Source of the DNA: an uncultured archaeon
Lineage (GTDB): Archaea > Asgardarchaeota > Thorarchaeia > Thorarchaeales > Thorarchaeaceae
Assembly: GCA_964558645.1 (NCBI GenBank)
Contig: CAZLEV010000002.1
Span: 409,450-463,261, forward strand
Length of the DNA stretch: 53,812 nt
Reading direction: 5' to 3'
Below are positions 16,315 through 31,786 of this stretch, one piece after another. The position numbers were made by a program, and so were the translations under genes. The notes below the pieces were generated by a model. The model was not told where the DNA came from. It was given only the letters and a program-made list of their open reading frames with translations, and made no database searches. Each line of letters starts with the position of its first letter. The first letter of the stretch is position 1.

Positions 16315-16351
16315 AAAAAAAAGATAGGGCCGAGTCTCGGGCGAGACTCGG
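16315..16351 (-). terminator. Hairpin plus U-run, terminator-like
   Basis: Perfect 10-bp inverted repeat CCGAGTCTCG-GG-CGAGACTCGG (16330-16351); T8 run 3' of it on the minus strand. Confidence 0.5.
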
Positions 16352-16611
16352 GGGGCTTGATGAGCCTTCTTACCAAGGCTCAACCAAAACAGGGGGCAGA
16401 TCTTCTGGATTCATTTTGTTTCAGAGTATTGTTCATGCCTACGTTAGTGTTCTACACTGCTCCCCAGTCAGCATTATACAATGAAGAGATAGAGTTCCTT
16501 TTCAATAGGAGAAGGTGTTCTGTTAGAGTTTCGAGGGGCGAATATATAGCAGACGCGCCAACATCTATGGCTCAATAGACATAATGGGCAGCGCGATTAA
16601 AGGCAGGCGAT

Positions 16612-16735
16612 CCTTCTGCTTGCTCCTGGGTGGCTCCAGAAGTTGATGGCGACATCAGGCAGAAGACGGATGGAACACAGAAGTCCGTAGGTGGGATTCA
16701 CTCCCTTAATGGACTCAGCCTCAAAACCATGTGTG
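16612..16735 (+). ncRNA. Orphan omegaRNA-like scaffold (3' part) plus putative guide (16702-16735)
   Basis: 64/87 ungapped identity of 16617-16703 to 23329-23415 downstream of tnpB, with compensatory base changes; ends GAAGTCC..GGATTCAC. Confidence 0.7.
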
Positions 16736-16781
16736 TGGTGCGGCCGCCGGGAATCGAACCCGGGCCATCAGCTTGGAAGGG
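16736..16781 (-). repeat. 3' half of tRNA-Gly(TCC), att-like duplication
   Basis: 32 nt identical to 23449-23480, extending to the anticodon loop TTGGAAGGG; anticodon stem variant GCTGA versus GGCTG. Confidence 0.9.
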
Positions 16782-16796
16782 GATGAACCGGACTTC

Positions 16797-19700
16797 TCAG
16801 TGAAAGAAACCCTCCAGAACCTCGAAGAACTCCTCCACATTCACTATGTGAAATCGACTCCAGTCACCCTCATCCAATAGCTGCAGAATGCTATTCACTA
16901 CCTCATCAGCATCAATACGTCGTGGAAGCTCCCATGAAACAGAGTCAAGAAGCTCATCTACCTCTCCAGCTCGTTTCACCTCCAGAGTGAGCGTCCTCCT
17001 CTGCAAGTCAGCCTCCAGTCGGGCTGGCATTTGCCCATCCCTCAGGCCCCGCGCCTCAAGTGCGCTTCTGATTCGAGCGCGCTGAGCTTCTGGATCATAG
17101 ATCGATTCTTCCGGAATCTCTGACGTGATATTCCTCCAGAGATCATCCAAGACCTCTGAGAGCTCTCGGACTACATCCAATTTATAGGTGAATGAGCGGT
17201 TCTTCCAGTATTCCCCCGTCAGACTGGACAGTGCTGCCCATTCGAGCCAGTCAGCTCTGATGGTCAAAGATATCTCCCATCTCTGCTGCTCAGCTCGAAG
17301 ATAGGTCCCGGGTTTCAGAGATGAAACCTCGAGTCCGCTCTTCCGCAGAATCTTTCTAATGAGTGGGCTCTCGCGGAAGACCATGTTCTCTCGCTGAACG
17401 TCTGATGGAAGAATGACTTTGACAGGATGAATCGTAGAATCGAAGACTATGCTCTCGGTTCCGAGTCGGAGGATGATCTCTCTATCAGTAAAAAGGCCGC
17501 AGAAGGCATCCGAGATTCTCTCATTCTCTCCCTCAAGAATTGACTGCCAGCATCTACCATGTTCCTTCCCCTCTCCCGAAGCCAGGGGACACTCGTTCTC
17601 GTTGTGGGATAGTCGAAAGCTGATCTCCTTACCACAGGGGAGGGCCTGTAGGTCCGCTATTCTTGCCGGTAGTCGGATATCAGCTGTTTCGGGAATGAAG
17701 GTCTCACTGACATTGGCCATGAGTGAGAGATCTCCATATTCGATGTCATTAAACCGGTCCCAGGAAACCATATGCCCAGACGATAGCCTTACAGGTAGAC
17801 CTTTGCTAGTGAGGGTCAATGTTTCGATGAGATTTGGCGTGAAGTGATGCTCTATCATCTGTAGGGACTCATCATCTTCGTTCTTGATGTCCACTCTGCA
17901 TCCCTCATCTGTCCACGACAGCTCCACTGACACATCTGTCTGCCCTTGAATCCGCCTGAGGACACGTCCAACAGCCTTTTCGAGTCGATGAGATAGACTG
18001 GCTGGAACCAAGATGTCAGTAGATCTTCGTGAGACTGGTTCTAAGATGGGGCCTTGTCTAGTGGCCCGGAGCATCGCAATTGAGCCCGTTGCTCTACCAG
18101 GGATGAAGTCGAATATGCTCCTTAGAATCCAGTCCGACTCCTCTGTTTCTCTTGTCCAGAACAACCAATCCCCATTGTTCTGCTGGAGAGCCAGAGAGAT
18201 GCGAGAGCCTGTATCCATGAGTTCGCGGACACTGTCAATGCGCTCTGAGATATCACTCTCAGCCCATTGCATCCCATCAGGGCGTGTAGCCAGCCTTTTG
18301 TTGAAGAAGCCCACAAGGACTCTAGCAGGATTCCTCGGGTCTTCCAGTGCAACAATGCTGATTGGTTGGTCAGGATCCTCTGAGTAAACTATCTGACCAA
18401 AGCTGGCAATCCTAGGTTTGGGAAGTTCAACAGTCTTAGGATAGGAGTCCCTCGCCTTGGATCTCTTATGCTTGGGACCACGATAGAGTCGGTGAGCATT
18501 GATCTGGCCGAGGAAGATATCGGCAAATGTCTTCTGCCCTCTTGTGCGAGGAGGACGATACCTGAGCCTATGCAGTAGAGGGGGTATATCTGCGGGTTCA
18601 CGGGAAACAGACCGTCTTGTTATTGTCAGACCTTCCATAGACTCATGAAACTCGTCGAAGGAGTCACGGAAAGCATCTGAGAGGGTCACACCGGGTGATA
18701 CCTCTGTGTTGGGCCACAGGTCAGCCAACCAGGGGAGCAGGCTCAATGCCAGCGACCTGATCCTCTCTCGAACCCACGCCTTCGGTACAACCTGCTCCTG
18801 TAGTTCAGACATCTCTGTCTTGGCCCGATCATATTCTTCGGTCCTGAACTTGGTAGCCCAGTGTCTAAGAACCGGGATGTGCAGAAGTGAGGTCTCAAAC
18901 CCGGAGGACGACTGGGCCACCACGACCCTGATGTCATCAAACATGGGGCTTCGAGGAGCGGACTGGCGGTGCCACGAGTCCGGGTCGATGACTCGTTCAG
19001 GCGCACATGGGAGGTTCCATATGATCTCATCCAGTTCACCCACAAGGGGAGAGGTATCACGAACAGGAATCAGGCAGTTGGTCGAGTAGATTGGAGTTCT
19101 TCGCTCATACTTCACCGGCCTTGAGAACCAGAGGATGGTTGTCTGTTCATCATCGGATAATCGGTCTACCAGCTCAGCCAGCAAGCGGTTCTTGCGGTCT
19201 CGATACGGTGAGGGCGTTGAGCCTTCAATCGCGTCCCACCCTGACACAACTAGCAGACGGGGCTGTTTCACTTTGTCTTCCAACACCCTCGACAGGTCAA
19301 GCATCGGGCCGTCATTGTAGAGGTATGCCTGAATGCCAGCAAAGAGTGGTTTGAACTCTATGGACTGGAGGGTTTCCTGCACTGCATCTGGCAGACCGTT
19401 CTCGGCCGGCCGCAGACGCGCCCTGAACCGAACCGCCCCAAACGAGGTTGTGGGGAACTCGTCAGCCAAGTCAAGCCAGACAACACGCAGGTCAGGAGTG
19501 GACTCTCGCAGCTGGTGGATCATCTGCAGGCCGTGATAGTGTCCTGCAATCCAAGCAGCCGAGGAGCCCGCTGATGTGGGAGATGCGGCCGAAACATAGA
19601 GGATGAAGCGTCTGGCTCGAATCCCAGCACCGGTCAATGGGTCATAGGGCGGTCTCCATTCCTGCGGCACCGAGGGCTGTCTGTAGTCTGGAGTGTGGTC

Positions 19701-21380
19701 CTGACTGTGGACCACGAGAGCCATGCGTGGTCTCAGGCCATTCCTCGAGACCTCATAGGTCGTCCTGCGTCCGGAGAGGTCATCCGTCAGGCTCGACTCG
19801 AGAGCCCGGACGACCAGACCCCGTATCATGCGCCTGCTCTCTCTGCTCTCATCAGTCGGGTCCATGACGAGTGTGGCCCGAATCACCCTTGGAGGACTCT
19901 CGAGATGCGCAATCGATCCGAAGGCCTCAGACAGGGCCTCCGCATAGGCATCCAGCTGGGTCACGGTGTTCGGCTCAGGGGTGCCATCAACGACCTGCAC
20001 CCACTCGTTGGGGCTGAGGGGACGCAGCGAGAGCCTGAACCGCGGAACCACCCGCTGGACCATCCCGTATCGCTTCCGAGATGACGAAGACCTCCGTTCA
20101 GGCTCCATGTACCACTTGAACCCGCAGCGGGTCTTGATCTCCACTACCATCACGGGGCGCCAGAGGGTACGTAGACCTGTGGGGGTGGCCTCCCTTCTGA
20201 ACACCACCAGATCTGCTCTGCCCTTGCCCAGCGAGGTCTCCAGCGGGAGCTCTGCGACAATCCTGAGACCTCCTCCGGCCCCATCGCGGTCATCGTCGCG
20301 GATGGCTCTCCGTACATCCAGAAACCGGTCGAATCGGTCCGTGATGCGCCTGTGGACCTGGGCACCCACCCTCTTCGTCCATCGAACCGCACTCTGCCAC
20401 AGGTGGCTCACATCGTCACTGGTCAGGCGTGGTGCCTTCTTCCCGTGCTCGTCCGTCAGGACCTCGGACCCGCCTGACAGGATTCGGGCAAACTCCCCGA
20501 TCACGGCCGGACTGACTCCACCCTCCTGAGCCTCTGCCAGCTGCTCTTCGAAGAAGTCCATGCTGAACCGGGGACGGGGATACTCCGCATGAGAGGACAC
20601 GGTCTCAGGCTCACCCACACGAACACCGTGGTGTGCCGCAATGTCATCACGGATCTCCCGCAGGAGTCGCACCGTCCCGTCCCTGAAGCCTGGCGACCCG
20701 TGTTCGAACTCCGTGTACAGGTGGTCAAGATACGTCCGTGCCCGGAGAATGAAGAGGTTGCTGTACCTGCGTGTGTCCCGCACCGACACATCATGGATGT
20801 AGGCGTCCGTGTTCAGGACCTGGATATGCTGTCGGAGAGCGTCCATGAAGTCCAGCTCGGTGAGGAAACGGTGGACGGAAGGATAGGCAGGCCAGCGTGA
20901 GTCGCCCGCGTACCCGTAGTCGATGTGCTCTCCCTTCTCGTTGAACAGGGGCTGGGGTTGCCCCATGGGATAGTAGATCGCCCCAAACTCCCGCAGGGCC
21001 GCGCCCCCCACATTGAACCGCTGATTCAGCGGCCCTACCTCCTCGTACCATCGCCGAGCACGCGTGGTCTCGGTGCAACCGTAGAGCGCCGCGTTCTCTT
21101 CCAGCATGTCCAGGCCGTTCTTCCTGATGTTGTGCTCCGCCTTCATCACGTGGGTGAAATTGGGGTTGCCCATGACCTTGGAGATTCGGTAGGCCTCGGT
21201 GTAACGGCGGAGGATGTCGCGCGAACTCTCGTACAGGTGACGGGTGGTCTTGCTCTGGATGGTGCGCTGCAGGTAGACAGCCGTGGACAGGCCTGTCCTC
21301 ATCGCCCGTGCCAGCACCCTGTTCGGATGCCTCGGGTACGGCCTCGCCCGCGGGCCTCGACTCCCTCTCATACGCATCAC
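16797..21380 (-). CDS. Large protein with PD-(D/E)XK nuclease domain and degenerate ATPase-like domain
   Basis: ELPL..GRADLVVF..VVEIKT..QLDAYAEAL (RecB/Cas4-type motif order), then RRFILYV..SAGSS..VVWLDLA..LLVVSGWD. Confidence 0.65.
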   Translation of the reverse strand: MMRMRGSRGPRARPYPRHPNRVLARAMRTGLSTAVYLQRTIQSKTTRHLYESSRDILRRYTEAYRISKVMGNPNFTHVMKAEHNIRKNGLDMLEENAALYGCTETTRARRWYEEVGPLNQRFNVGGAALREFGAIYYPMGQPQPLFNEKGEHIDYGYAGDSRWPAYPSVHRFLTELDFMDALRQHIQVLNTDAYIHDVSVRDTRRYSNLFILRARTYLDHLYTEFEHGSPGFRDGTVRLLREIRDDIAAHHGVRVGEPETVSSHAEYPRPRFSMDFFEEQLAEAQEGGVSPAVIGEFARILSGGSEVLTDEHGKKAPRLTSDDVSHLWQSAVRWTKRVGAQVHRRITDRFDRFLDVRRAIRDDDRDGAGGGLRIVAELPLETSLGKGRADLVVFRREATPTGLRTLWRPVMVVEIKTRCGFKWYMEPERRSSSSRKRYGMVQRVVPRFRLSLRPLSPNEWVQVVDGTPEPNTVTQLDAYAEALSEAFGSIAHLESPPRVIRATLVMDPTDESRESRRMIRGLVVRALESSLTDDLSGRRTTYEVSRNGLRPRMALVVHSQDHTPDYRQPSVPQEWRPPYDPLTGAGIRARRFILYVSAASPTSAGSSAAWIAGHYHGLQMIHQLRESTPDLRVVWLDLADEFPTTSFGAVRFRARLRPAENGLPDAVQETLQSIEFKPLFAGIQAYLYNDGPMLDLSRVLEDKVKQPRLLVVSGWDAIEGSTPSPYRDRKNRLLAELVDRLSDDEQTTILWFSRPVKYERRTPIYSTNCLIPVRDTSPLVGELDEIIWNLPCAPERVIDPDSWHRQSAPRSPMFDDIRVVVAQSSSGFETSLLHIPVLRHWATKFRTEEYDRAKTEMSELQEQVVPKAWVRERIRSLALSLLPWLADLWPNTEVSPGVTLSDAFRDSFDEFHESMEGLTITRRSVSREPADIPPLLHRLRYRPPRTRGQKTFADIFLGQINAHRLYRGPKHKRSKARDSYPKTVELPKPRIASFGQIVYSEDPDQPISIVALEDPRNPARVLVGFFNKRLATRPDGMQWAESDISERIDSVRELMDTGSRISLALQQNNGDWLFWTRETEESDWILRSIFDFIPGRATGSIAMLRATRQGPILEPVSRRSTDILVPASLSHRLEKAVGRVLRRIQGQTDVSVELSWTDEGCRVDIKNEDDESLQMIEHHFTPNLIETLTLTSKGLPVRLSSGHMVSWDRFNDIEYGDLSLMANVSETFIPETADIRLPARIADLQALPCGKEISFRLSHNENECPLASGEGKEHGRCWQSILEGENERISDAFCGLFTDREIILRLGTESIVFDSTIHPVKVILPSDVQRENMVFRESPLIRKILRKSGLEVSSLKPGTYLRAEQQRWEISLTIRADWLEWAALSSLTGEYWKNRSFTYKLDVVRELSEVLDDLWRNITSEIPEESIYDPEAQRARIRSALEARGLRDGQMPARLEADLQRRTLTLEVKRAGEVDELLDSVSWELPRRIDADEVVNSILQLLDEGDWSRFHIVNVEEFFEVLEGFFH

Positions 21381-21626
21381 ACTCTCTTCGCAGAGAAAAC
21401 TATCGTTGCTCCTGTGACCATATCAAAAAGTAGGTTTAATGTTTTTCGATTGAGAATTTAAGGTGTAGAGGATGAATAGACTAATTTAGTTAATTGTTTG
21501 GTCAAATTGCTTCATAGGTTTAAATGCTTTCATACTTACTCATTGTAGGAGTTCAAAACGCCTTCTGAAGCACAGGATGGCGAGTGAACTCCACTGACCG
21601 GACAGGTCAGAGGTTTAAATGCGAAG

Positions 21627-23312
21627 ATGATGGCGATGGTGACGTCCCAGGAACCAGTAATCACGGTCAAGATCCCCATCAACTGGGAGATGATGACTGC
21701 GAGGGCGCAACAGCGACTGCGGCAGACGGTTGGCAGGGACACCAGAGTCATCAGGGCGTTCTTCGGGATCATCGAGGAGAACGAGGAACAGCTCTTGAGG
21801 GGGAGGAACAGGGACCGTATCGATGAGAACAAGCTGCATGCCATGACCATGACCGCCCTGAAGGTGGCCGATGGGCAGGAGCAGCGCCCTGAGGTTGAAC
21901 ATGACCTGAAGGAGCAGTTCCCGAGGATATCGGCCAACGAGTTGAGTGAGTGCCGCAGGGTGGCGGTGGCGAACTATGAGAGCTACTTGGCTTTAAGGAA
22001 GAAGCGGTGGCGGAAGGCATCACGTCCCAGTGAGGTGAACCGGAGTCAGCGGATACCGAGAAGGATCTTCATACCATATCGGGCTGAGCTGGTTCGTCAT
22101 GAAACCACTGTGGCAACGTGGTGGTTGGAGCTGCGTGACTCGCTGGACTCGGTCCCCGAGGGTCGGCGGGTGCATGATAGGCTGACTGTGCCGCTGAAGA
22201 CCTCGCCCTTCCACCTTGAGCAGCTGGACAGAGGAGATAAGAAGTCTGTACAGGTGTTCACGGATAGGCAGGGGAAGTGGTGGGCGGCTGTGGCAGTGCG
22301 GTTGCCCGAGGTTGAGACTGAATCGGACCTGCCTCCGGCGGTGCTGGGAATCGATTTGGGGATCAACCGTGCTGTGTGTACGACCTTAGTGACTCCCGCC
22401 AAGGTCTCAGAGACCCGGTACTTTGTCCAGGAGCACAAGGTCAGGCTCATGAAGAGGTATGATGATAGGTTTGCTGACCTGCAGCGGGAGCTTGAGTTCT
22501 GCAAGACGGATGAGGAGCGCCACGACAACGTTGCTGCTAAGCTCCGAAGTCTTCGCTCCAAACGGGAACAGGTCTCCAAGGAGTACGACCGCCTCACTGT
22601 AAGCAGACTCATCTCCTACATTGAGGAACTGAGTCTCAAATATACAGTCTATGTTGCCATCGGCCGGGTCAAGGGCATCCGCAATACTGCTCGAAAGGGG
22701 AACTACAAGGGAAGGAAGTTTCGAGGGATGGTGCATCGCTGGAGCTTTGGGCGGGTGACGCGCACGCTCAAACATGGGCTCGAGCAACGAGGTTGGAGAA
22801 CCCAGGGGGAGAAGAGTCGATTTCACGTGGTTCCTGAGAACTGGACCTCCATCACCTGCTGGAAGTGTGGAAACAGAGGGATTCGACCGAAGCAGTCCCT
22901 CTTCATCTGTCACACCTGTGGGTTCAGAACGAATGCTGATAGAAACGGTTCCCTAAACATTGCGCGTCGATTAATCACGCTCATTCCTTCACTTACGAAT
23001 GAGAACGGACTAGGGCGGTGGGCCACTCCTGAACGGAGGCTCGGTTCAGCCCCGAAGGCTGTAAGGAAGGCTCGCTCTTCTAAGCAGAAGTCCGCACTCT
23101 CTCACAACGGTCAGGCATCAGGTCGGAGAGAGTCCGCGGTGGTTCGCCCCGCTCAGATGAGCATCCTTGACTTTGGCGACGAGGTCGAGGTTGGCGATGA
23201 TGATAGTGCCGTGGGAAAAGCTGTGGAAAGACTCTCTGCTCCCGGAATGGATGCGTCCGGAACAGAGCAGGAGAAGGAAGCCCGGACTGCAGGAGGGCCC
23301 GTGTCCCGATGA
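21627..23312 (+). CDS. tnpB: TnpB-family RNA-guided nuclease with rearranged (Fanzor-type) RuvC
   Basis: RuvC-I LGIDLGI; VAIGRV at the canonical RuvC-II position; VPENWTS then CWKC..CHTC zinc finger; RuvC-III NADRNGSLNIA. Confidence 0.9.
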   Translation: MMAMVTSQEPVITVKIPINWEMMTARAQQRLRQTVGRDTRVIRAFFGIIEENEEQLLRGRNRDRIDENKLHAMTMTALKVADGQEQRPEVEHDLKEQFPRISANELSECRRVAVANYESYLALRKKRWRKASRPSEVNRSQRIPRRIFIPYRAELVRHETTVATWWLELRDSLDSVPEGRRVHDRLTVPLKTSPFHLEQLDRGDKKSVQVFTDRQGKWWAAVAVRLPEVETESDLPPAVLGIDLGINRAVCTTLVTPAKVSETRYFVQEHKVRLMKRYDDRFADLQRELEFCKTDEERHDNVAAKLRSLRSKREQVSKEYDRLTVSRLISYIEELSLKYTVYVAIGRVKGIRNTARKGNYKGRKFRGMVHRWSFGRVTRTLKHGLEQRGWRTQGEKSRFHVVPENWTSITCWKCGNRGIRPKQSLFICHTCGFRTNADRNGSLNIARRLITLIPSLTNENGLGRWATPERRLGSAPKAVRKARSSKQKSALSHNGQASGRRESAVVRPAQMSILDFGDEVEVGDDDSAVGKAVERLSAPGMDASGTEQEKEARTAGGPVSR

Positions 23313-23323
23313 CCGCAGTCAAA

Positions 23324-23448
23324 GATCTTGCTTGCTCTGGGGTGGCTCCTAGAGTTAGTGGTGACACTGGGCAAGAGAAGGGCGGAACACAGAAGTCCAA
23401 AAAGAGGGTTCACTCATCTTGTATCGTTCTATTGGAAGGTCAAGAAAG
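23324..23448 (+). ncRNA. tnpB-linked omegaRNA scaffold 3' region plus putative guide (23414-23448); 5' end probably inside the tnpB tail
   Basis: Hairpins CTCTGGGG/TCCTAGAG, TAGTG-GTGA-CACTG, TCTTGC/GCAAGA and terminal AGTCC/GGGTT, then TTCAC. Confidence 0.7.
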
Positions 23449-23524
23449 TGGTGCGGCCGCCGGGAATCGAACCCGGGCCACAGCCTTGGAAGGGCTGAAT
23501 CCTAAACCCCTAGACAACGGCCGC
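23449..23524 (-). tRNA. tRNA-Gly(TCC), intronless, CCA encoded
   Basis: GCGGCCGTTGTCTAGGGGTTTAGGATTCAGCCCTTCCAAGGCTGTGGCCCGGGTTCGATTCCCGGCGGCCGCACCA. Confidence 0.96.
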
Positions 23525-23538
23525 CAGGGTCTACGAGA

Positions 23539-23854
23539 GGACTATCAGTGGAAGGGTCGGGTCATCATGATTCGACCCCTTCTCCAAATGTGCCTCTGGA
23601 GTCAAGGGTGCCAAAGCTGTGGATTTAAGCCTATTGCTAGAGTGAACGCTTTGGATGTATTAGTGGAAGGCTGGGATCATGCTTTGATTCGAGCCCATTC
23701 ACTTACACCAATGGAACATATCGGTGGAAGGCTGGGATCCGGTTTAGATCCAGATTTCATTGCGATAGCAAACGGACATATTAGTGGAAGGGTGGCATCC
23801 TATTTGCAACAACCTCAATTCATAGAATGGACGAATCAGTGGAAGGCCATTATC
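23539..23854. repeat. Degenerate ~60-bp-period repeat array, consensus GGA-N2-4-ATYAGTGGAAGG-N5-RTC
   Basis: GTGGAAGG at 23548, 23663, 23724, 23784 and 23839; related copies at 30219, 30335 and 30436. Confidence 0.8.
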
Positions 23855-23950
23855 ATCTACCAATAAGGCACTCATTGTATTCGCTTACAGGCTTGCGGAA
23901 ATAGAAATAAAGCCAAGAGAGAATAATCTCTCAAAGGATGTTTCTAGACC

Positions 23951-24901
23951 ATGGATATAGTAAGATTCGGACGCGAAGTGTCAGGGCATCTTGCTTGGAT
24001 GGGATTGAGTCTGGTAGGGTCAGCAGGACTTGTAATTGGACTGTATTATCTGAATCCTCTTGAGTTGTATCAGCTTTCCTACATAATGCCATTCTTTATT
24101 TTTATCGCGCTAATTGGAATGTTCTTTGCTCTATCCGGTTTCCTTTTTCTTGTCATGTACCAATTTGATGAATACCGTTTTCTAAGAAAGTGGGAATTTG
24201 ATGAAACACCCATCTCCTATAGACTTCCACAAGAGGCTCTTGCACCGGCATTTCTTCTTGATACGATTGATAGGGAGATTCTGCAAATCACTTCTTCAAC
24301 GGGAGGGGACATTCTGGCCGTCAAGAACCAGATCAAAAATCGAGCCTTGGCCCAGAATGATGACGAAATGGCAGACAAATTATCTCATCTTGTCAATGCT
24401 GAAATGGTGGGATTATCGAAAAAGCTCGTGACCAAGCGACTCTATCTTACTCCGATGGGACATGAGGCAATGCATACCCCTGCAGTTGCGTATACTTCCA
24501 GAATACCAATCCGAGTCCGGCGGCATATGTACAGGGCAAGGCGTAATATCTGGCGTGAGCAATGGGGCCAAGCAGTACTCGAAATTCATAAAGCTATGGA
24601 GGCAGCATACAAGATTCTACTTCGCACAAGGGCAGAAACCGACACGGTCATTTCGGATGTTGTGAAAGAAGCAGAAGAAAATGGAAGACCTCTTGACGAG
24701 CGGACATCCGGTTCTCTGCATAATCTTTTGATTCAAGCAGATATTTTAGAGAAGGGGTCCTTCGAACGCCATCTTAGTGATGAGATATCTAAGACTCGTA
24801 GATATGCCCATGACTCACCAGAAGAACAGGCATACGAAGCAGATGATGCAATACTTTTGGAGCAGTACCTTGGAATCCTCATGAAGCGGCTGTTCACGTA
24901 G
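23951..24901 (+). CDS. 2-TM plus wHTH plus HEPN-like domain protein
   Basis: Two N-terminal TMs; LYLTPMG wing; AVLEIHKAMEAAYK..SKTRRYAH (RxxxH). Confidence 0.55.
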   Translation: MDIVRFGREVSGHLAWMGLSLVGSAGLVIGLYYLNPLELYQLSYIMPFFIFIALIGMFFALSGFLFLVMYQFDEYRFLRKWEFDETPISYRLPQEALAPAFLLDTIDREILQITSSTGGDILAVKNQIKNRALAQNDDEMADKLSHLVNAEMVGLSKKLVTKRLYLTPMGHEAMHTPAVAYTSRIPIRVRRHMYRARRNIWREQWGQAVLEIHKAMEAAYKILLRTRAETDTVISDVVKEAEENGRPLDERTSGSLHNLLIQADILEKGSFERHLSDEISKTRRYAHDSPEEQAYEADDAILLEQYLGILMKRLFT

Positions 24902-24913
24902 TTTAGCGCAGAT

Positions 24914-25114
24914 TTAACTCCCTTGCTTCTTGGTCTTGAGATTCAAATCTAGGATGATACAACCCCGTCCTTGAGAGATTGTGAAAGAGCCATCAATCCG
25001 TTCGATTTCCCTCTTCTTCAGCTCTTTCAAAAGGTCCGCAAATTCCTTGCCATATGCTTCGGTGACATTGTTCGCCTCAAGCTGAGGATGTTTAAGACGC
25101 AATCTAATCTGCAT
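24914..25114 (-). CDS. Small hypothetical protein
   Basis: 66 aa from ATG 25114 (MQIRLRLKHPQ...), divergent from 25221. Confidence 0.4.
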   Translation of the reverse strand: MQIRLRLKHPQLEANNVTEAYGKEFADLLKELKKREIERIDGSFTISQGRGCIILDLNLKTKKQGS

Positions 25115-25220
25115 CCTGCTTCGTGATGATAGCAATACATTTACAATTGAGTTTCTGGCTCGGGCGCAGCGAGGATAGAATTCATTATAGGATCTGACGC
25201 AGAACGGGTGGGGATGATAT

Positions 25221-26513
25221 ATGAGTAAGCCTACAATCAAGGAGGTTTTGAAGGAACTAAAGGAGAATCCGAACTTCAACGTATTTATGCAAAGACTATC
25301 AGAGAATCAACTATACCACAATCTTCTATTTCTGCACAAGATGGATTTGTTTGGAGTAGAGGGCACATTCCTCATGCCAGCTCTGCCTTATACTGGAGAA
25401 TTTTGGGAAGAGATGCGTATTCATGCCAATGACATGCAGGTAATAGAATACTTGACCGGTGTTGCTACTCAAGGTGATTTATCCAGTAAGTGGATGAAAA
25501 TTCTGGGCATCGAATCTGATTCTGAAATGCGCAAGGATTTCTTCGATCTTGTCGCATACTTTCTGTTCACTGCAGTCAGGTCGAATGAGGATTTAGTTGA
25601 CTTGATAAACGACCCAGATTTCAATTACCGGCGCATGAAAGACAAGTTGGGCAATGTTACCGAGTTTCTTTCAGGACTATCTGACCAATTGGGACAGGAT
25701 GAAACCAGTTCTGAGGGACCGGAACCTGTTGTTAGGAAGAAAGCCGAGAAGGTCGCTAAGAGGATGAAGAACTATTTCGAGGGTTCATGGATCGAAATTA
25801 TAGAATCAATATCTGAAGCATTTCCGAATCTAAGATTGGTTTTGGCATTAATGGCACCATCTTGGGAGCAAGGGATACTGGAGAATTCAGATCTCGAATA
25901 TGAAGACTATTCAGACCTCCTCGATACGCTTTATATGCATAAACTCATTGACTTGAGAAGCTCGATATTTTGGTGCGACAGTTGCGGGCTTGAAGATCCA
26001 TCATATACAGAACTGCATGGGAGAGTGGCGCCAGGAAAACTACACAAGTCCCAGTGTTTGGGCTGTGGGAAATACTACTCATTTGTGGCGTTCTATAGCC
26101 TCTCTAAGAGTTTCGAGGAGGCATTATTCTTCAAGGATGGCTTTATCTCTATTTACCTCGGTTGGCTTCTGGAAAGAGAGGAGGTACCTTTCAAATGCAA
26201 CACATACGAAGGGAAGTATGAATGCGATTTCATTGTTGGAAACACGCTCATCGAATGTAAAACACTTCGGAAGCGCACTATGAATGACAGGGTCGCGATT
26301 GAAAGCGAATTGAAGAAAAGCTTAGAACAAATCGAGAAGCAAATTGGCGAATACCCGGATAGTGAGATTACATCAGCAGTCTTGGTCTGGAATTTGGCTG
26401 GTGATGACTCATCCTCTGTTGAGGAATTCCTCAAAACTCATTCTGTGAAACAATTTCAGTTTAGAATCATCAGCCCAGAGCAGATCGGGCGATTGGTTTC
26501 CGACTTCAAATGA
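25221..26513 (+). CDS. Zn-ribbon plus C-terminal PD-(D/E)XK nuclease-domain protein
   Basis: CDSC..CLGC; ECDFIVGNTLIECKT..LEQIEK; low GC. Confidence 0.6.
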   Translation: MSKPTIKEVLKELKENPNFNVFMQRLSENQLYHNLLFLHKMDLFGVEGTFLMPALPYTGEFWEEMRIHANDMQVIEYLTGVATQGDLSSKWMKILGIESDSEMRKDFFDLVAYFLFTAVRSNEDLVDLINDPDFNYRRMKDKLGNVTEFLSGLSDQLGQDETSSEGPEPVVRKKAEKVAKRMKNYFEGSWIEIIESISEAFPNLRLVLALMAPSWEQGILENSDLEYEDYSDLLDTLYMHKLIDLRSSIFWCDSCGLEDPSYTELHGRVAPGKLHKSQCLGCGKYYSFVAFYSLSKSFEEALFFKDGFISIYLGWLLEREEVPFKCNTYEGKYECDFIVGNTLIECKTLRKRTMNDRVAIESELKKSLEQIEKQIGEYPDSEITSAVLVWNLAGDDSSSVEEFLKTHSVKQFQFRIISPEQIGRLVSDFK

Positions 26514-26569
26514 GTAGGTGAATAGAAAATAGAATCCAACGAGTTAGATTCTTTATATGAATCCCCGAG

Positions 26570-28705
26570 TTGATGCCTTTGACTAATAGTATGCCTTCAA
26601 GAAATGAGTTATACAAAGCAGTCAATGATTCAATAGATGATATCGAAGAATTCCTTACTCAACATGACCCTCTAGAAATAATAGCGAGTGTTTCCAAGCA
26701 CATAGCTATATTCAGCATTCAAGACCATATCGAGTCAGAGGATATGTTGTGGCAGCCTTTGATAGAGTATCTAATGAGTCTAGCGTTAGCAAAACCCAAA
26801 CCGGAGAATCCAAAAAAGCTAGAGGAGGGGGTATTCGATTCGCTATTAGAAAACTGGATTCAACTTGTGAAAGAATTCACTGCATACTCTGGTAGCGAAT
26901 ATGTAGCTGCAGGTGGAGGAACAGCAGCTGAAATCAGATTCAAGCTTATTCTTGACTATTTTGGTGTCCGAAAGAAGGCGTATCAGATTCATGTTGAAAA
27001 GACCTTTACTGAGCTGTTTCGACCACACCGGAGTCATATTATTGATAAGCTGGGTTTCTCACCAGAGGACTTTAGCGAATTCATTCGATTTGCAGAAACA
27101 GAAATCACTGTGGCGATTCAGAACGAGTTGGATACACTACACTCACTTAGTGAACTACATTCTCGATTTTCAAAATGGACAAGGAACCAAGATGTAGAGG
27201 GAAAATCCAAGGAAAGTATCATGGATCGTTTTCTTGTACAGAATCCCGACTTAGCGAGTAAGAAGGAGAGAGTAGATGAACTTTCACATGTAGAGATATA
27301 TGATGTATTCGAAATCAAGGCTCAAAACGCACCACAAGAAAAAATCTTGAGTGCGATATCTTGCTCTTTTGGCGAAAACAGCAAATTTCTTGAACCCGAA
27401 GAATGGAGAGCTTGGCCCACAAATGACACAATACTATATGAAAGCCCCATAATACAGGCTGGAGAGAAATACTATCTGCTTAACTACGCAACGCTTGCAA
27501 ATAATAGGATTGAGATAATGGAGAGCCTTCTGGAAAAGCTTTCAAAGGATTATTATCGGACACGATATCTTCCGGGACGTGATCATTATGTAGAGCATAC
27601 AGCAATGAACTTGATTCGGGAATTGCTTCCGAATTCTACTATATTTTCGAATCTGTACTACTACGTCAAAGAAGATGAGATAACAAAACGAGTGGAACAA
27701 GATGGACTGGTACTCTACGATGATTGTTTATTGCTAGTTGAGGCAAAAGCAGGAATGTTACCCATACCAGCTCGAAGGGGCGCAATGCCAGGGCTTAAGA
27801 CGAAAGTAAAGGAGATTCTGAAGAAAGGACACAACCAGGCGTGTCGTGCCTTGGATTATATTCATTCTTCAGCAACAGCTGACTTTTTGGATGAGAATGA
27901 CAACCTCCTTGTTTCCGTAACTGGATCTCGGTACATACACGAGTACTTGATACTGGTTACTCTTGAGCCTCTATTCGTACTGACATCTCATCTGTCCTCA
28001 GCTGAGGAACTTCGCCTGCTGTCAGGAAAGGAATGGCCCTGGGCAGTTTATATCAACGATTTGCGTGTCCTCGCTGATATAATCGATCATCCATGTCTTT
28101 TTCTCCATTATTTGAATCGGCGCATTAAATTGAACTCCAAACCAGCTATTGAAACATATGACGAGCTTGACTACCTCATGACCTATCTTCGGACAGGTCT
28201 ATATTTTGAGGAAAAAGATTTGCAGGAAGCTGACAAAATCATTATTGTACCGGAAACCAGTGAGCTCGATGAATACTATTCTGATCTATCGAAAAGCGGA
28301 GCTGCTAGGAAAAAGCCAAGCATGGGTATGAACCCGATATTTGAAACATTAATTGGGCGTCTTGAAACTGAAGCACCAGACCATTTCACATCAACATGTT
28401 TTCATCTTCTGGATTGCGATGATGAAACGCGTTCCGAAATCGCAAAGCAGATTGAAAATTGTGAACAGAGATTCAAGATAGATAAGGGCCCAACATCTGT
28501 TGCTTTTCGAATCGATAGTAACGGTTTACTTCTGGCGTGCGTTAACAATATTGATGATTGCGATGATTTGGTGAACAACTGGTCAAATAAATGGCTCAAG
28601 CAAATGGATGTAAATCATGTCACTGTCTTCCTATGGACACCCCCAATTCAGGAGGGTTCAATCAGAGTCTTCAAATTCGGAGGAAGCTCATCTTCAGGCG
28701 ATTAG
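26570..28705 (+). CDS. NERD-like/PD-(D/E)XK nuclease-domain protein
   Basis: SNLYY..EQDGLVLYDDCLLLVEAKAG..GHNQACRALDYI; FLHYLNRR..DELDYL; low GC. Confidence 0.65.
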   Translation: MMPLTNSMPSRNELYKAVNDSIDDIEEFLTQHDPLEIIASVSKHIAIFSIQDHIESEDMLWQPLIEYLMSLALAKPKPENPKKLEEGVFDSLLENWIQLVKEFTAYSGSEYVAAGGGTAAEIRFKLILDYFGVRKKAYQIHVEKTFTELFRPHRSHIIDKLGFSPEDFSEFIRFAETEITVAIQNELDTLHSLSELHSRFSKWTRNQDVEGKSKESIMDRFLVQNPDLASKKERVDELSHVEIYDVFEIKAQNAPQEKILSAISCSFGENSKFLEPEEWRAWPTNDTILYESPIIQAGEKYYLLNYATLANNRIEIMESLLEKLSKDYYRTRYLPGRDHYVEHTAMNLIRELLPNSTIFSNLYYYVKEDEITKRVEQDGLVLYDDCLLLVEAKAGMLPIPARRGAMPGLKTKVKEILKKGHNQACRALDYIHSSATADFLDENDNLLVSVTGSRYIHEYLILVTLEPLFVLTSHLSSAEELRLLSGKEWPWAVYINDLRVLADIIDHPCLFLHYLNRRIKLNSKPAIETYDELDYLMTYLRTGLYFEEKDLQEADKIIIVPETSELDEYYSDLSKSGAARKKPSMGMNPIFETLIGRLETEAPDHFTSTCFHLLDCDDETRSEIAKQIENCEQRFKIDKGPTSVAFRIDSNGLLLACVNNIDDCDDLVNNWSNKWLKQMDVNHVTVFLWTPPIQEGSIRVFKFGGSSSSGD

Positions 28706-28848
28706 AAAATAGAGCTATGGTTATTTGGTTTGAAGATACCCACAACGACCTCCAAAGGATGCGGTTGCGTTAGTGTATTGGTTGAATGCGATTCCCGAAA
28801 GGAGAATGATTTAGGTGTAGGGTCAACCAACTATCATCCCTCAGTCTT

Positions 28849-29973
28849 CTAGCCAATATATGATGGCTCACCTTTTAGTTCCCCCCGTTTGCTCTTTCGC
28901 CGTTCCTTCAGACTGCTCAGAAGCTGCCAGATGAAACCTATGACTCCAAGAATGTTAGCAATCACTTCCAGCCACTCCCAAGTAGTCCACTCATCGGGCT
29001 CTGCACCCACAGTAGCCTGCGTTGAAATTGTTGATACAAAAACAAGGATTGTCAACAGAACTAGTCCCTTTGCACCCTTGGGTCTGAACAAGACGACAAC
29101 GACAACAACGGTCAAGCTGGATGCAAATCCAACTAGCGCGATAAGTTGATTAATCGAAATTTGAGACACTTCCTCAGGGGAGGGGTTGCTTATCGCACTC
29201 CACCATCTGTATACCCATGAGTTACCAACTTCGTCAACCACAAACACTTCGATTTCACACGGTCCGTTATCTAGGGATGTTGAATCCCAAGTGAATGAAG
29301 TTGAGTAATCTCGTCGGTTGGGCGTATCACGGAAAATCTCTGAACCGTTAGCGTATACTCTGAGTACACTGATGTCACAATGGAGGTCGGTTGCGCGGGG
29401 ATGGAAGGTGATTGAGCCATTGAGAACATCCGGAACGTTCATCTCAACCATTGGCGGACTCAGGTCTTCACAGATGTAGTAACTCACGTGTCTGTCATAC
29501 TCCCAGAAGTAATATCCGAATGCAGATATGACAACGTACCATTGGTCAACATCGTCGCCCTGCAGTGTGTCTCCAAGAGTTACTTCCCATTCATGGCTAT
29601 ACACGCCTGACATGAGAGTATGATATCGACTTGGAGAACCATCATCCAAATACTCTCCCAAACCTTGCTGGTCCGTAATCATGAATGCAACAGGACGATC
29701 AGAGGTGAAGTTTCCATACAAACACATACCGTCGGAATCTGCTGAGAACGACTCGAAAAAGAGAGAATCATCGATATCAACCAACTGGTCCGTAGCAATA
29801 AGAGTCCTATTCACTTGGTGAGAAACGTAATCAAAAGCACCAATTGGAGGTGGATTGACAGGGGGATCACCAGGCGGTATGTAGTTCAGCTGGGGATGAA
29901 TGTATGCAATGAATAGAGCAAAGCCCGCTGCAACTGCTATGGCTAATACAACTAGGTTTTTTCCGTATTTCAT
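28849..29973 (-). CDS. Membrane-anchored extracellular protein with Ig-like domain
   Basis: N-terminal TM; DLSPP..WDSTSLDNG..VVDEVGN Ig-like repeat; three C-terminal TMs. Confidence 0.65.
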   Translation of the reverse strand: MKYGKNLVVLAIAVAAGFALFIAYIHPQLNYIPPGDPPVNPPPIGAFDYVSHQVNRTLIATDQLVDIDDSLFFESFSADSDGMCLYGNFTSDRPVAFMITDQQGLGEYLDDGSPSRYHTLMSGVYSHEWEVTLGDTLQGDDVDQWYVVISAFGYYFWEYDRHVSYYICEDLSPPMVEMNVPDVLNGSITFHPRATDLHCDISVLRVYANGSEIFRDTPNRRDYSTSFTWDSTSLDNGPCEIEVFVVDEVGNSWVYRWWSAISNPSPEEVSQISINQLIALVGFASSLTVVVVVVLFRPKGAKGLVLLTILVFVSTISTQATVGAEPDEWTTWEWLEVIANILGVIGFIWQLLSSLKERRKSKRGELKGEPSYIG

Positions 29974-30176
29974 GCAACTCATCTCATCTCTTTCTGTTAT
30001 TTCCCCATTCTCCACAATCGCCAATAATTAAGCGATTGAATATACTTGCACTTCCCTTTTATTTGTTCCATATGAATTTCGAAGAATGCATTACCAGACA
30101 CTCTACAAGAATAACGAAGCTATGTGTGGTGGAAGTAGAATTCGTTTCTAGAGTGTCTTAGTGAGAAATGAGAAAT

Positions 30177-30352
30177 AACCCCTAGACAACGGCCGCGGAA
30201 GTCTAACGAGGATCATCAGTGGAAGGAGCGAATCATGTCGATTCGGCCCCTTTCTAGCATGCGCCTCTGGGGTCAAGAGTGGCTAGAATGCGGTTTTAAG
30301 CATATTGCTAGAGTGAGCCCTCAGGATGCTATCAGTGGAAGGCATGGGTCCT
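30177..30352 (-). repeat. 5' 20 nt of tRNA-Gly(TCC) plus diverged copy of its upstream region
   Basis: 30177-30196 identical to 23505-23524; similarity continues (GCCTCTGG.GTCAAG, TTTAAGC.TATTGCTAGAGTGA) to about 30352 versus 23680. Confidence 0.88.
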
Positions 30353-30575
30353 TTGTTGGATGACATATAGCGAAACCGAAGACAGACAAATCAGTAAGCG
30401 TATTGCAGTGGCGCCGCGAGTTGACAGTCCGGGGAGTGGAAGGTGGATCCTTGCCTGCGAGGTCCGCCTCTCCTTCAGGCCATGCGGCTGGTCGAAGTGA
30501 TAGAATGACCGGTTCATCTCGAACAGAACAACAGATATCTGGAGGAGAAGCAGACAGGAGTAGCGCGCTGAGTGC

Positions 30576-30659
30576 AGGCACACGTATCGAATCGAGAGAT
30601 GATGGAGATGGGAAGAGTATTCGAGTCTGACGAGTTGGCAGATGCCGACCTGCTTGTGG
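30576..30659 (+). repeat. 84-bp direct repeat, copy 1 (N-terminal relic of an AspBHI-like restriction endonuclease gene)
   Basis: 79/84 identical to 32929-33012; reads MGRVFESDELADADLLVDAIYRGG. Confidence 0.75.
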
Positions 30660-30785
30660 ATGCCATCTACAGGGGCGGCACGGCGATGAGCCTCTAGGAC
30701 CTGATGGCGAGGGTATCGTTCGGGGCATTGCGGGTGGCCAGTTGTTCTCACACCCAGCGAGTAGATTAGAAATACTTTTTAGAGA

Positions 30786-31769: not shown

Positions 31770-31786
31770 AACAGGAGGAAGAAACA

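What the first reader, a model, noticed from the sequence alone, without database searches (positions are those of the whole stretch)
23433..23854. ~60-bp-period TGGAAGG array in phase with the tRNA anticodon loop, most units followed by a hairpin
TGGAAGG occurs at 23433, 23487 (the anticodon loop itself), 23549, 23664, 23725, 23785 and 23840, with spacings 54, 62, 115, 61, 60 and 55; a decayed copy lies near 23600. On the minus strand, units read (G/T)GAY-N6-CTTCCA-CYRAT-N2-4-TCC, mimicking the tRNA's GGAT-N6-CTTCCA with GGA/TCC symmetry. Variable-sequence hairpins follow (AAGGGTCGGGTCATCATGATTCGACCCCTT; GGCTGGGATCA..TGATTCGAGCC; CTGGGATC..GATCCAG). The motifs are retained in the 30.2-kb copy. 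Hypotheses: array of att-like recombinase sites (integron-like or decoy), proto-CRISPR-like RNA array next to TnpB, or C/D-like modules (ATGATGA-13nt-CTGA in unit 1).
Basis: partly seen in the sequence, partly recalled or inferred. Interest (0 to 1): 0.75.

Follow-up and report, generated by a model that had tools for sequence, protein, structure and literature searches.

The report
tRNA-derived hairpin repeats flanking gene cassettes
The ~60-bp TGGAAGG array is real: it is a string of conserved, foldable copies of the tRNA-Gly anticodon arm lying in a strain-variable insertion just upstream of that tRNA gene in one family of Thorarchaeal (Asgard) archaea. It most likely serves as recombination sites where gene cassettes are gained and lost, an arrangement I did not find described for archaea.

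Summary
**Observation.** Confirmed. TGGAAGG sits at every stated position. The extended 12-mer occurs 8 times in the 3.63-Mb genome, 7 of them at the two loci named.

**What the unit is.** Each unit copies the antisense of the tRNA-Gly(TCC) anticodon loop, the 5' strand of the anticodon stem and the D-stem (TGGAAGG-N5-ATCMT). It has acquired its own bipartite stem-loop. The fold covaries across genera and works only on the + strand (52 G:T versus 2 A:C pair cells).

**Distribution.** A covariance model finds the unit only at this locus in the genome. It finds it at equivalent loci in 18 of 86 family genomes (9 of 16 genera), upstream of tRNA-Gly(TCC) or between cassette genes.

**Mobility.**
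- The array is not part of the neighbouring TnpB/giant-protein element; each occurs without the other.
- It belongs to a 6.9-kb insertion that a sister strain in an independent metagenome lacks.
- Homology ends and junctions fall at or in the motif.
- In other genomes, units separate single genes, as in a cassette array.

**Best reading (0.42).** Folded single-strand, attC-like recombination sites derived from the tRNA, with an unidentified recombinase.

**Rivals.** A +-strand structured RNA, or inert scars of displaced tRNA 5' halves.

**Not supported.** CRISPR-like guide array, C/D-box RNA, coding region.

The scan's index showed no similar array on other DNA.

The parts
23449..23524 (-). 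tRNA-Gly(TCC), intact. Its anticodon loop (23487-23493 on +) is 'unit 0' of the array.
   Evidence: ARAGORN and Rfam tRNA at 59.8 bits. The distance from the anticodon core to the U1 core is 62 nt, which equals the array period.
23543..23600 (+). Unit U1 (core 23548-23555 plus hairpin). It lies in the 23-nt-distant leader between the tRNA and its promoter.
   Evidence: hairpin MFE -20.2, z -1.6. Orthologous unit in G003.
23601..23657 (-). Promoter segment of the tRNA: TATA-like GATTTAAG at 23622-23629 and TATTG at 23633-23637 as read on +. Not a decayed unit.
   Evidence: The same GATTTAAG..TATTG element lies 30-60 nt upstream of tRNA-Gly in relatives without any array. It is conserved in the 30.2-kb copy, G003 and G020. 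The promoter function itself is inferred.
23658..23718 (+). Unit U2 (core 23663-23670). It forms a bipartite stem-loop in which GUGGA pairs with UUCAC and GGCU... pairs with ...AGCC.
   Evidence: MFE -20.3, z -3.4, 0 of 200 shuffles as good. Best own-genome hit of model R1, E 6.7e-13.
23719..23778 (+). Unit U3, with no positional counterpart in G003, which points to whole-unit gain or loss.
   Evidence: z -0.9; E 3e-8.
23779..23833 (+). Unit U4, the counterpart of G003's third unit. The hairpin is weak.
   Evidence: z +0.7; E 2e-5; 32 of 40 interior identity to G003's unit.
23834..23895 (+). Unit U5, a decayed counterpart of a unit that in G003 is still a recognisable complete tRNA 5' half with its own leader and promoter.
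23951..30024 (.). Cargo of the insertion: four ORFs of 316, 430, 711 and 391 aa. No integrase was found.
   Evidence: The 430-aa protein has a Cys4 cluster and a D..ExK-like motif by eye, and its homologue in G377 sits near a DNA methyltransferase. The 711-aa protein has a weak GapS1 hit below cut-off.
30160..30176 (+). Right terminus of the insertion. Similar termini abut tRNA 5' fragments in G354 and G003.
30177..30196 (-). Displaced 5' fragment of the tRNA (positions 1-20), cut in the D-loop.
   Evidence: Identical 20 nt to 23505-23524 (D6). The same kind of fragment occurs in G377, G003 and G354.
30197..30394 (+). Second leader module: U1' (core 30219-30226), promoter copy (about 30293-30315), U2' (core 30335-30342), and a truncated unit (30383-30394) fused to the native promoter.
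   Evidence: D1, 74%. The native sequence of the sister strain and of G001 resumes at 30395.
30436..30443 (+). Single GTGGAAGG in the native upstream region, shared with G001.
16736..16781 (-). Displaced 3' part of the native tRNA. It ends in the anticodon-loop core and marks the left end of the TnpB/giant-protein element (16782 to about 23493). This is context for the array.
   Evidence: D5, 91%. An empty-site contig in X3 joins 16780 to 23505.

Best explanation
**What it is.** The array is a set of cis-acting recombination sites that originated from the tRNA-Gly(TCC) gene itself.
- Each unit keeps the antisense of the anticodon loop plus the next ten or so bases (TGGAAGG-N5-ATCMT).
- Each has evolved a bipartite stem-loop. 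GUGG of the core pairs with a downstream UCAC, and GGC-N pairs with N-GCC. The fold forms only on the + strand.

**Where it belongs.** The units are part of integrase-less, strain-variable insertion modules. A module consists of units, a replacement promoter, a leader and the first 16-20 nt of the tRNA. It sits between the tRNA gene and its native promoter and carries variable cargo such as defence-like and surface proteins.

**How it most likely works.** A recombinase cuts and joins at the TGGAAGG core. The neighbouring TnpB/giant-protein element uses the same core in the anticodon loop. The recombinase probably acts on the site folded as single-stranded DNA, as integron integrases do at attC. 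Cassettes and whole units are thereby inserted, deleted and duplicated at the cores.

**Shown.**
- The origin from the tRNA.
- The conserved, strand-specific fold.
- Restriction to this one locus.
- Presence or absence between strains.
- Breakpoints at the core.
- Genes lying between units.

**Inferred.** That the fold acts as DNA rather than RNA, and the identity of the enzyme. The widespread giant-protein family, reported as Asgard Cas1-like, is the only candidate suggested by association.
For: 1. **Non-random and local.** 7 of the genome's 8 copies of the 12-mer lie here. Covariance model R1 hits only this array in the own genome. It hits 18 of 86 family genomes in 9 of 16 genera, at loci that searches place upstream of tRNA-Gly(TCC) or between cassette genes. 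A pattern scan of 400 Asgard genomes gave flank-consistent arrays only in this family.
2. **tRNA origin.** The tRNA antisense in 11 genomes reads TTGGAAGG-N5-ATCMT in the same register as the units. The consensus of 94 units is GGTCAGTGGAAGGcT...aTC.T. Some units are still complete pseudo 5' halves: G003 U5, G020 unit 2015 and G005 unit 694. The distance from the anticodon to U1 equals one period.
3. **Selected fold.**
   - Helix GGCN5/N5GCC is 85.5% paired, and 4 of 8 pairs show double changes.
   - There are 26 compensatory cells against 11.9 +/- 3 in shuffles (0 of 500 as high). Slid controls reach only 24-48%.
   - Helix GUGG/UCAC is 93% paired.
   - There are 52 G:T cells against 2 A:C cells.
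   - The + strand folds better than the - strand, P = 7e-5.
4. **Mobility.**
   - In metagenome X3, depth is 45-88 on both sides but 1.5-9 over 23616-30226. Contigs join 23503/23524 to 30395/30397.
   - Relatives with an unoccupied tRNA have no units.
   - Arrays occur without TnpB (L058, L075, L078). TnpB occurs without an array (G001, the X3 strain).
5. **Breakpoints at the core.**
   - Homology between the two leader copies ends just after the U2 core.
   - At 30383-30394 the 5' flank of a unit is fused to native promoter sequence exactly where the core should start.
   - In G354 a leader is fused to a terminal unit at GGTCA|GTGGAAGG.
   - The neighbouring element's displaced tRNA 3' parts all end in the anticodon loop, in G000, G003, G353 and G377.
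6. **Cassette layout.** G395:C192 has six canonical units with one ORF in each of three intervals. G005:C49 has three copies of a 135-bp module bracketing 5.7-kb and 0.8-kb segments.
7. **Association with the giant-protein family.** 17 of the 18 array-bearing genomes have it, against 34 of the 68 without an array. The genomes are related, so this is only suggestive.
Against: - No recombinase was found in the cargo. The genome has a single tyrosine recombinase, on another contig.
- I could not confirm any Cas1 or other integrase domain in the giant protein.
- An excess of G:T over A:C pairs is the classic signature of RNA, so the fold may act as RNA.
- Several units stand in tandem with no gene between them, and cargo genes face both ways, unlike integron cassettes.
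- The tRNA 5' fragments are cut in the D-loop, not at the core, so a second kind of junction exists that this model does not explain.
- The hairpin is weak in U4, U5 and the genus-g4 units.
- No circular or free form was found.
Confidence: 0.42

Rival explanations
1. The units are modules of a structured non-coding RNA transcribed from the + strand, antisense to the tRNA. This would be, for example, read-through from tnpB/omegaRNA or a divergent transcript from the tRNA promoter region. It would act as an RNA, as a regulator, processing substrate or protein-binding repeat. The recombination breakpoints would then be incidental.
For: - Strong covariation and a 52:2 excess of G:U-type over A:C-type pair cells.
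- The + strand is more stable than the - strand.
- No run of five or more T occurs on the + strand across the array (read).
- The + strand shows an unusual lack of stop codons in one frame in several genomes, which could reflect some transcript-level constraint.
Against: - No +-strand promoter with a proper BRE orientation is evident. Arrays exist where nothing upstream is on the + strand (L058).
- The orientation of the next gene relative to the array is not conserved.
- There is no Rfam match.
- It does not explain breakpoints at the core or genes between units.
- No RNA data are available.
Confidence: 0.25
2. The units are inert scars. They would be serially displaced or unequally duplicated tRNA 5' halves plus leader, left by repeated integrations at the anticodon loop, and decaying without function.
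For: - The period equals 5' half plus leader plus core (62 nt).
- A decay series runs from complete pseudo 5' halves to unrecognisable interiors.
- Whole units are gained and lost between genera.
Against: - Interiors have diverged to roughly half identity between genera (by eye). The 8-mer core is nonetheless intact in every unit of every array, with no gap in the spacing.
- A hairpin absent from the tRNA has evolved and is kept by compensatory changes on one strand only.
- Caveat: units were found by the exact motif, which biases the apparent conservation of the core.
Confidence: 0.13
3. The units are duplex-DNA binding sites for a transcription factor or chromatin protein controlling the replacement promoter of the tRNA. 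They lie directly upstream of it, about 60 bp apart.
For: Arrays always begin 15-20 nt upstream of the promoter element, or flank it. A conserved 23-nt block has variable linkers.
Against: - Native promoters of the same tRNA work without units.
- Units also occur far from any tRNA, between cassette genes.
- A strand-asymmetric, covarying stem is not expected for a duplex binding site.
Confidence: 0.07
4. The array is a CRISPR-like or split-omegaRNA guide array used by the adjacent TnpB. It would have a 29-nt repeat and a 31-nt spacer, possibly written by the Cas1-like giant protein.
For: The geometry is about 29 + 31 nt. It lies near tnpB and a protein family reported as Asgard Cas1 (PMC10691335).
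Against: - Array and TnpB occur independently.
- Repeats within one array differ and covary instead of being identical.
- 'Spacers' are positionally conserved between genera and form half of the hairpin.
- There is no significant likeness to the omegaRNA.
- No matches in phage records. The motif-pair pattern found only unrelated repeats in viral contigs.
- The tRNA gene lies between the omegaRNA and the array.
Confidence: 0.04
5. The units are archaeal C/D-box sRNAs on the minus strand, or the region is protein-coding (ORF 23309-23866).
For: - U1 reads ATGATGA-13 nt-CTGA on the minus strand.
- A 185-codon ORF overlaps the tnpB stop as ATGA and spans the array.
Against: **C/D-box reading.**
- The C-box GA positions are not conserved.
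- D is CTAA or CCGA in U2-U4.
- There is only one box pair per unit.
- The fold is on the other strand.

**Coding reading.**
- The motif is read in all three frames.
- The frame through the tRNA differs between the window and G003.
- Mismatches per codon position are 20, 15 and 11, lowest at position 3.
- There is no Pfam hit.
Confidence: 0.03

Closest known systems
Integron attC sites and gene-cassette arrays
   Same: - Structure is conserved while sequence varies.
- Folding is strand-specific.
- A conserved short box sits at the base of a bipartite stem interrupted by unpaired bases.
- Sites separate cassettes with variable cargo next to a fixed platform.
- Breakpoints lie in the conserved box.
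   Different: - No IntI-type integrase or attI was found.
- The platform is a tRNA gene and its promoter.
- Several sites stand in tandem without genes between them.
- Cargo genes face both ways and may be multigenic.
- The sites derive from a tRNA anticodon arm.
- The host is an archaeon.
tRNA-gene att sites of integrative elements (direct repeats of tRNA fragments; anticodon-loop sublocation, from general knowledge of Williams 2002, not re-read here)
   Same: - Insertions are flanked by direct repeats of tRNA parts.
- The crossover of the neighbouring element lies in the 7-nt anticodon loop, flanked by the stem as inverted half-sites.
- Tandem occupation leaves displaced fragments.
   Different: - Here the 5' part with promoter and leader is replaced, not only the 3' part.
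- The element side carries 1-6 half-site copies with their own hairpin.
- No integrase gene lies in the insertion.
aCas1-TnpB elements of Asgard archaea (Altae-Tran et al. 2023, PMC10691335)
   Same: This is the neighbouring element type. The paper describes a TnpB with a GTTCACTCA motif paired with a large protein family reported as Asgard Cas1, with loci 'often flanked with repeats'.
   Different: The paper's main text does not mention tRNA (0 occurrences), and I found no description of this array in it. The array is separable from that element, and I could not confirm Cas1 homology of the giant protein.
REP/BIME clusters with RAYT transposases; IS200/IS605 subterminal hairpins
   Same: A short conserved single-stranded motif lies immediately 5' of a variable hairpin. 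The units are clustered and show strand-specific folding. TnpB ancestry is nearby.
   Different: The units are not dispersed, occurring at one locus per genome. All are in one orientation. No Y1/HUH gene was found among the neighbouring ORFs scanned with Pfam.

Membership tests
Integron (attC / cassette array) | IntI-type tyrosine recombinase gene next to attI at the head of the array | tested here: not met
   No integrase appears among the array-adjacent ORFs scanned in the window and related loci. The only PF00589 match in the genome is on contig C1.
Integron (attC / cassette array) | Sites that fold on one strand into a bipartite stem with conserved outer boxes and a variable inner stem | tested here: met
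   Outer helix GUGG/UCAC is 93% paired. The inner helix is 85.5% paired with compensatory changes. G:T versus A:C is 52:2. This is a likeness of architecture only; the boxes are not the integron R boxes.
Integron (attC / cassette array) | One site per promoterless, co-oriented cassette | tested here: not met
   Units occur in tandem runs of 2-6. ORFs between units face both ways, and some intervals hold several ORFs.
CRISPR array | Near-identical direct repeats separated by unrelated, rapidly changing spacers | tested here: not met
   Repeats are 65-81% alike within the array. Interiors are positionally orthologous between genera and pair with the repeat.
CRISPR array | Obligate linkage to cas genes or an effector | tested here: not met
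   Arrays occur without TnpB or the giant protein nearby. TnpB occurs without an array.
Archaeal C/D-box sRNA | C (RUGAUGA) and D (CUGA) boxes, usually with C'/D', about 12-nt guides, and K-turn-forming GA pairs | tested here: not met
   Only U1 has a full C box. D is CTAA or CCGA in U2-U4. Consensus positions after ATGAT are variable. The conserved fold is on the other strand.
tRNA-targeting integrative element (att repeats) | Insertion flanked by direct repeats of part of the tRNA gene, absent from empty sites | tested here: met
   The 20-nt identical 5' fragment plus a 74-78% leader copy flank 6.7 kb. The sister strain lacks the whole insertion. Analogous fragments occur in G377, G003 and G354.
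tRNA-targeting integrative element (att repeats) | Element-encoded integrase | tested here: not met
   None was detected in the cargo.
REP/BIME (REPtron) | Genome-wide dispersed copies and an associated RAYT (Y1) gene | tested here: not met
   Model R1 hits only this locus in the own genome. No Y1 transposase appears among the neighbours scanned.
Known RNA families (Rfam 15) | A match to any curated covariance model | tested here: not met
   Only the tRNA itself matches, even at E up to 5.

The most novel reading that the evidence does not exclude
Thorarchaeia would possess an integron-like cassette-capture platform anchored on the tRNA-Gly(UCC) gene.
- Folded single-stranded sites evolved from the tRNA's own anticodon arm would act as attC analogues.
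- Each incoming module would bring a replacement promoter and 5' end for the tRNA.
- The reaction would be catalysed in trans by the giant Cas1-like integrase family, which uses the same anticodon-loop core.

This would be a Cas1-family enzyme working on an array of repeated targets outside CRISPR.
Probability: 0.15. Interest if true: 0.85.

Novelty: new variant of a known kind. Interest (0 to 1): 0.6.

Why it matters
If the units are recombination sites, this is a new way of building a gene-cassette hotspot. The site is copied from the target tRNA, is kept as a foldable structure, and travels with a spare promoter and 5' end so that the essential tRNA stays expressed.

It would give a concrete substrate for testing what the enigmatic Asgard giant 'Cas1-like' proteins next to TnpB do. 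It would also help explain how defence and surface-protein genes are shuffled in the closest archaeal relatives of eukaryotes.

If the units instead act as RNA, they are a new structured RNA family with clear covariation and no known relatives.

Either way the locus is a compact, testable system: about 45-nt units, one tRNA gene, and natural presence/absence strains.

Tried and rejected
- **RNA evidence.** No RNA holder was listed for this DNA, so expression could not be examined.
- **Rfam.** Gathering and E-value modes returned only the tRNA.
- **Phage records.** No match to the array.
- **IMG/VR.** The pattern scan returned only unrelated tandem repeats. No free viral or plasmid form was found.
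- **Metagenome pattern scan.** About half of the 33 hits were unrelated, for example MORN-repeat coding DNA reading G-Q-W-K-D-G.
- **TnpB guide check.** The 34-35-nt segments after the two omegaRNA scaffolds have no near match elsewhere in the genome.
- **Unit versus omegaRNA likeness.** An apparent match (ATGGAACA-N14-TGGGAT) did not survive a shuffle test across 10 loci.
- **Coding.** Rejected.
- **C/D box.** Rejected.
- **Recombinase hunt.**
  - Recurrent array-adjacent protein families turned out to be surface or secreted proteins, BNR propellers, NosD/beta-helix proteins, FG-GAP proteins and ABC transporters.
  - A recurrent 400-aa neighbour that I suspected to be an integrase is a BNR/YCF48-like protein.
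- **Giant protein.** Pfam, NCBIfam, PDB sequences and the ESM Atlas gave nothing. Its 'Cas1-like' label rests on the literature only.
- **RNAalifold.** It gave no structure on a mixed alignment of all unit types. The structure emerged only for the 69-77-nt class.
- **Target-site duplication.** I considered a Cas1/casposase-type duplication to explain the tRNA fragments. It does not fit: positions 21-31 are missing from the outer fragments rather than duplicated.
Full report
**1. Observation**

The window comes from a Thorarchaeal (Asgard) genome of 3.63 Mb and 49.6% G+C. The taxon label comes from earlier notes of this scan.
- ARAGORN and Rfam place tRNA-Gly(TCC) at 23449-23524 on the minus strand.
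- TGGAAGG is at exactly the seven stated + strand positions, and at 30220, 30336 and 30437.
- The window has 25 copies against 9.6 +/- 3 expected.
- The 12-mer AT[CT][AG]GTGGAAGG occurs 8 times in the genome, 7 of them here.
- The repeat finder independently reports a 29-31-nt repeat with spacings 115, 61, 60 and 55.
- The 115-nt gap does not hold a decayed unit. It holds a TATA-like GATTTAAG followed by TATTG, which also precedes this tRNA in relatives that have no array. I read it as the tRNA promoter; this is an inference.

**2. Surroundings**

Two insertions flank the tRNA.

*The 3' side.* The region from 16782 to about 23493 carries a 1527-aa protein and a TnpB (Pfam TNB domain) with its omegaRNA.
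- It is bounded by a displaced copy of the tRNA 3' part that ends in the anticodon loop (16736-16781, D5).
- In relatives with an unoccupied site, the 735-aa gene at 14176-16383 abuts the tRNA directly.
- This element type is described as aCas1-TnpB (PMC10691335).
- I could not confirm a Cas1 domain in the giant protein.

*The 5' side.* The first 20 nt of the tRNA recur at 30177-30196. They are followed by a 74-78% identical copy of the leader with two units and the promoter.

*Strain variation.* Contigs of an independent freshwater-sediment metagenome (X3) were laid on the region.
- X3 holds a strain that differs from the window at many single positions (tables 1, 3 and 8).
- That strain covers 14000-23615 and 30227-32000 at depth 45-88, but 23616-30226 only at 1.5-9.
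- Its contigs join 23503/23524 to 30395/30397.
- The array, the four cargo ORFs, the 5' fragment and the second leader copy therefore form one 6.9-kb insertion that a sister strain lacks.
- The same run holds an empty site for the TnpB element, joining 16780 to 23505.

**3. The array is separable from TnpB**

The giant protein, TnpB, tRNA-Gly and a GTGGAAGG array recur together in G003, G013, G353 and G377. G020 shows TnpB, the tRNA and an array at a contig start. The array nevertheless varies independently of the TnpB element.
- G001 (same genus) and the X3 strain have the TnpB element with a native, array-free leader.
- Metagenomic loci L058, L075 and L078 have arrays beside a native 3' flank with no omegaRNA.

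**4. Origin of the units**
- In 11 genomes the antisense of the tRNA reads TTGGAAGG-N5-ATCMT, covering the anticodon loop, the 5' strand of the anticodon stem, position 26 and the D-stem. The units keep this register.
- The consensus of 94 distinct units is GGTCAGTGGAAGGcT...aTC.T.
- Some units are still complete pseudo 5' halves with their own leader and promoter: G003 U5, G020 unit 2015 and G005 unit 694.
- The window's U5 is the decayed counterpart of G003 U5.
- The anticodon core lies 62 nt from U1, so the tRNA 5' half plus leader is itself one period.
- Whole units differ between the window and G003. Window U4 corresponds to G003 U3, and window U3 has no partner.

**5. A conserved, strand-specific fold**

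*Single units.* Over 60 units, the 38 nt after GTGGAA fold better than shuffles. Mean z is -1.3, and 27 of 60 fall below -1.5. They also fold better on the + than on the - strand (P = 7e-5).

*Alignment of 25 units (A3).*
- The helix GGC-N5/N5-GCC is 85.5% paired, and 4 of 8 pairs change on both sides.
- It has 26 compensatory cells against 11.9 +/- 3 in shuffles (0 of 500 as high).
- Sliding the partners drops pairing to 24-48%.
- An outer helix pairs GUGG of the core with a conserved UCAC (93% paired). It explains the conserved TCAC after the hairpin.
- In these two helices there are 52 G:T cells and 2 A:C cells.

The folded form is therefore the + strand, antisense to the tRNA, as RNA or as single-stranded DNA.

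*In the window itself.* U1 and U2 fold well, U3 weakly, and U4 and U5 do not.

**6. Distribution**
- A covariance model built from A3 hits only this array in the own genome. The unit is therefore not a dispersed repeat.
- It hits 18 of 86 family genomes, in 9 of 16 genera.
- A pattern scan of 400 Asgard genomes found flank-consistent arrays only in this family.
- There is no Rfam family, no phage match and no viral-contig form.

**7. Breakpoints and cassettes**
- Homology between the two leader copies ends just after the U2 core.
- At 30383-30394 a unit's 5' flank runs up to the point where the core should begin. There it meets the native promoter sequence, which the sister strain and G001 share from 30395 on.
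- In G354 a tRNA 5' fragment with its leader is fused at GGTCA|GTGGAAGG to a terminal unit.
- All displaced 3' parts left by the TnpB-type elements end within the anticodon loop, in G000, G003, G353 and G377. The core is therefore a crossover site.
- G395:C192 shows six canonical units with one ORF in each of three intervals.
- G005:C49 shows three copies of a 135-bp module (promoter plus two units) bracketing 5.7-kb and 0.8-kb segments.
- Cargo is variable and integrase-free. It includes:
  - a protein with a Cys4 cluster and a D..ExK-like motif, whose homologue in G377 lies near a methyltransferase;
  - a protein with a weak GapS1-like hit;
  - NosD-like, FG-GAP and signal-anchored proteins.
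- A second, unexplained kind of junction exists. The displaced tRNA 5' fragments are cut in the D-loop (positions 16-20), next to similar element termini in three genera.

**8. Interpretation**

The coherent reading is that the units are recombination sites derived from the tRNA. They are kept under selection as a folded single strand, and cassettes and units are exchanged at them. This works like integron attC sites, but it fails the integron membership tests: no IntI, mixed gene orientation and tandem empty sites.

The enzyme is unknown. The giant-protein family is present in 17 of 18 array-bearing genomes, against 34 of 68 others. The genomes are related, so this is only a hint.

The main rival is a +-strand structured RNA, which the G:U signature would equally fit. 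No RNA data exist.

Inert scars are unlikely given the covarying stem. A CRISPR-like guide array, C/D-box sRNAs and a coding region were each tested and not supported.

**9. Verdict**

This is a real, lineage-restricted, structured repeat with a probable role in site-specific cassette exchange at a tRNA gene. It is a new variant of known kinds (att and attC sites). The mechanism is only partly established.

Noticed in passing
window 23309-23866 (+): A 185-codon ORF starts with an ATGA overlap on the tnpB stop and runs through the omegaRNA, the antisense tRNA and the whole array. One + frame is unusually free of stops over the arrays of several genomes (P = 0.011 in the window, 0.012 in G003, below 0.001 in G347). 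Frame use and codon-position mismatches nevertheless argue against a conserved protein. Unexplained.
   Followed up: partly
window 16780/23505 and 23503/30395 (metagenome X3): Natural strain variants exist. A minority form has an intact native tRNA and no TnpB/giant element (depth 13). A dominant form has that element but lacks the 6.9-kb array-plus-cargo insertion.
   Followed up: yes
window 23494-23504 versus the X3 empty-site contig: The native tRNA-Gly has the anticodon stem UCAGC/GCUGA, whereas the present gene has CAGCC/GGCUG. Both strands of the stem are therefore non-native, as if the 5' and 3' replacement parts are co-adapted.
   Followed up: no
window 16617-16703: The solo omegaRNA-like remnant left of the displaced tRNA 3' part is 95% identical to the omegaRNA of the element in G377. 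That is closer than to the intact omegaRNA 6.7 kb away (74%). This points to an earlier, different occupant of the site.
   Followed up: partly
window 23432-23439: A further TTGGAAGG lies inside the 35-nt segment between the omegaRNA scaffold end (GTTCAC) and the tRNA 3' end, 54 nt from the anticodon core. It is absent from the corresponding segment of G003.
   Followed up: no
window 25221-26513 (+) and L051:7017-10327: The 430-aa cargo protein has a Cys4 cluster followed by a D..ExK-like motif, by eye. Its 44-46% identical homologue in G377 lies near a DNA methyltransferase (PHROG 18146, E = 2e-89). This suggests a restriction-modification cargo.
   Followed up: partly
window 26570-28705 (+): The 711-aa cargo protein gives a weak, below-cut-off hit to the antiphage GapS1 family (E = 9e-5).
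   Followed up: no
window 5024-5128 (+): Rfam calls a 105-nt tRNA (48.8 bits) that ARAGORN does not report. It is presumably intron-containing.
   Followed up: no
G000 contigs C6, C10, C14, C27, C30 and window 16797-21380: The giant-protein family has six matches in this genome and is present in 51 of 86 family genomes, often in several copies.
   Followed up: partly
L049, L050, L016, L056, L064, L083, L084: A family of about 220-aa signal-anchored proteins rich in N-x-S/T sequons recurs as cargo between units in several genera.
   Followed up: partly
L007 (G001): In the same-genus genome G001, the open frame that continues the TnpB translation runs on, without a stop, through the omegaRNA region and the antisense tRNA (1782 nt open).
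   Followed up: no
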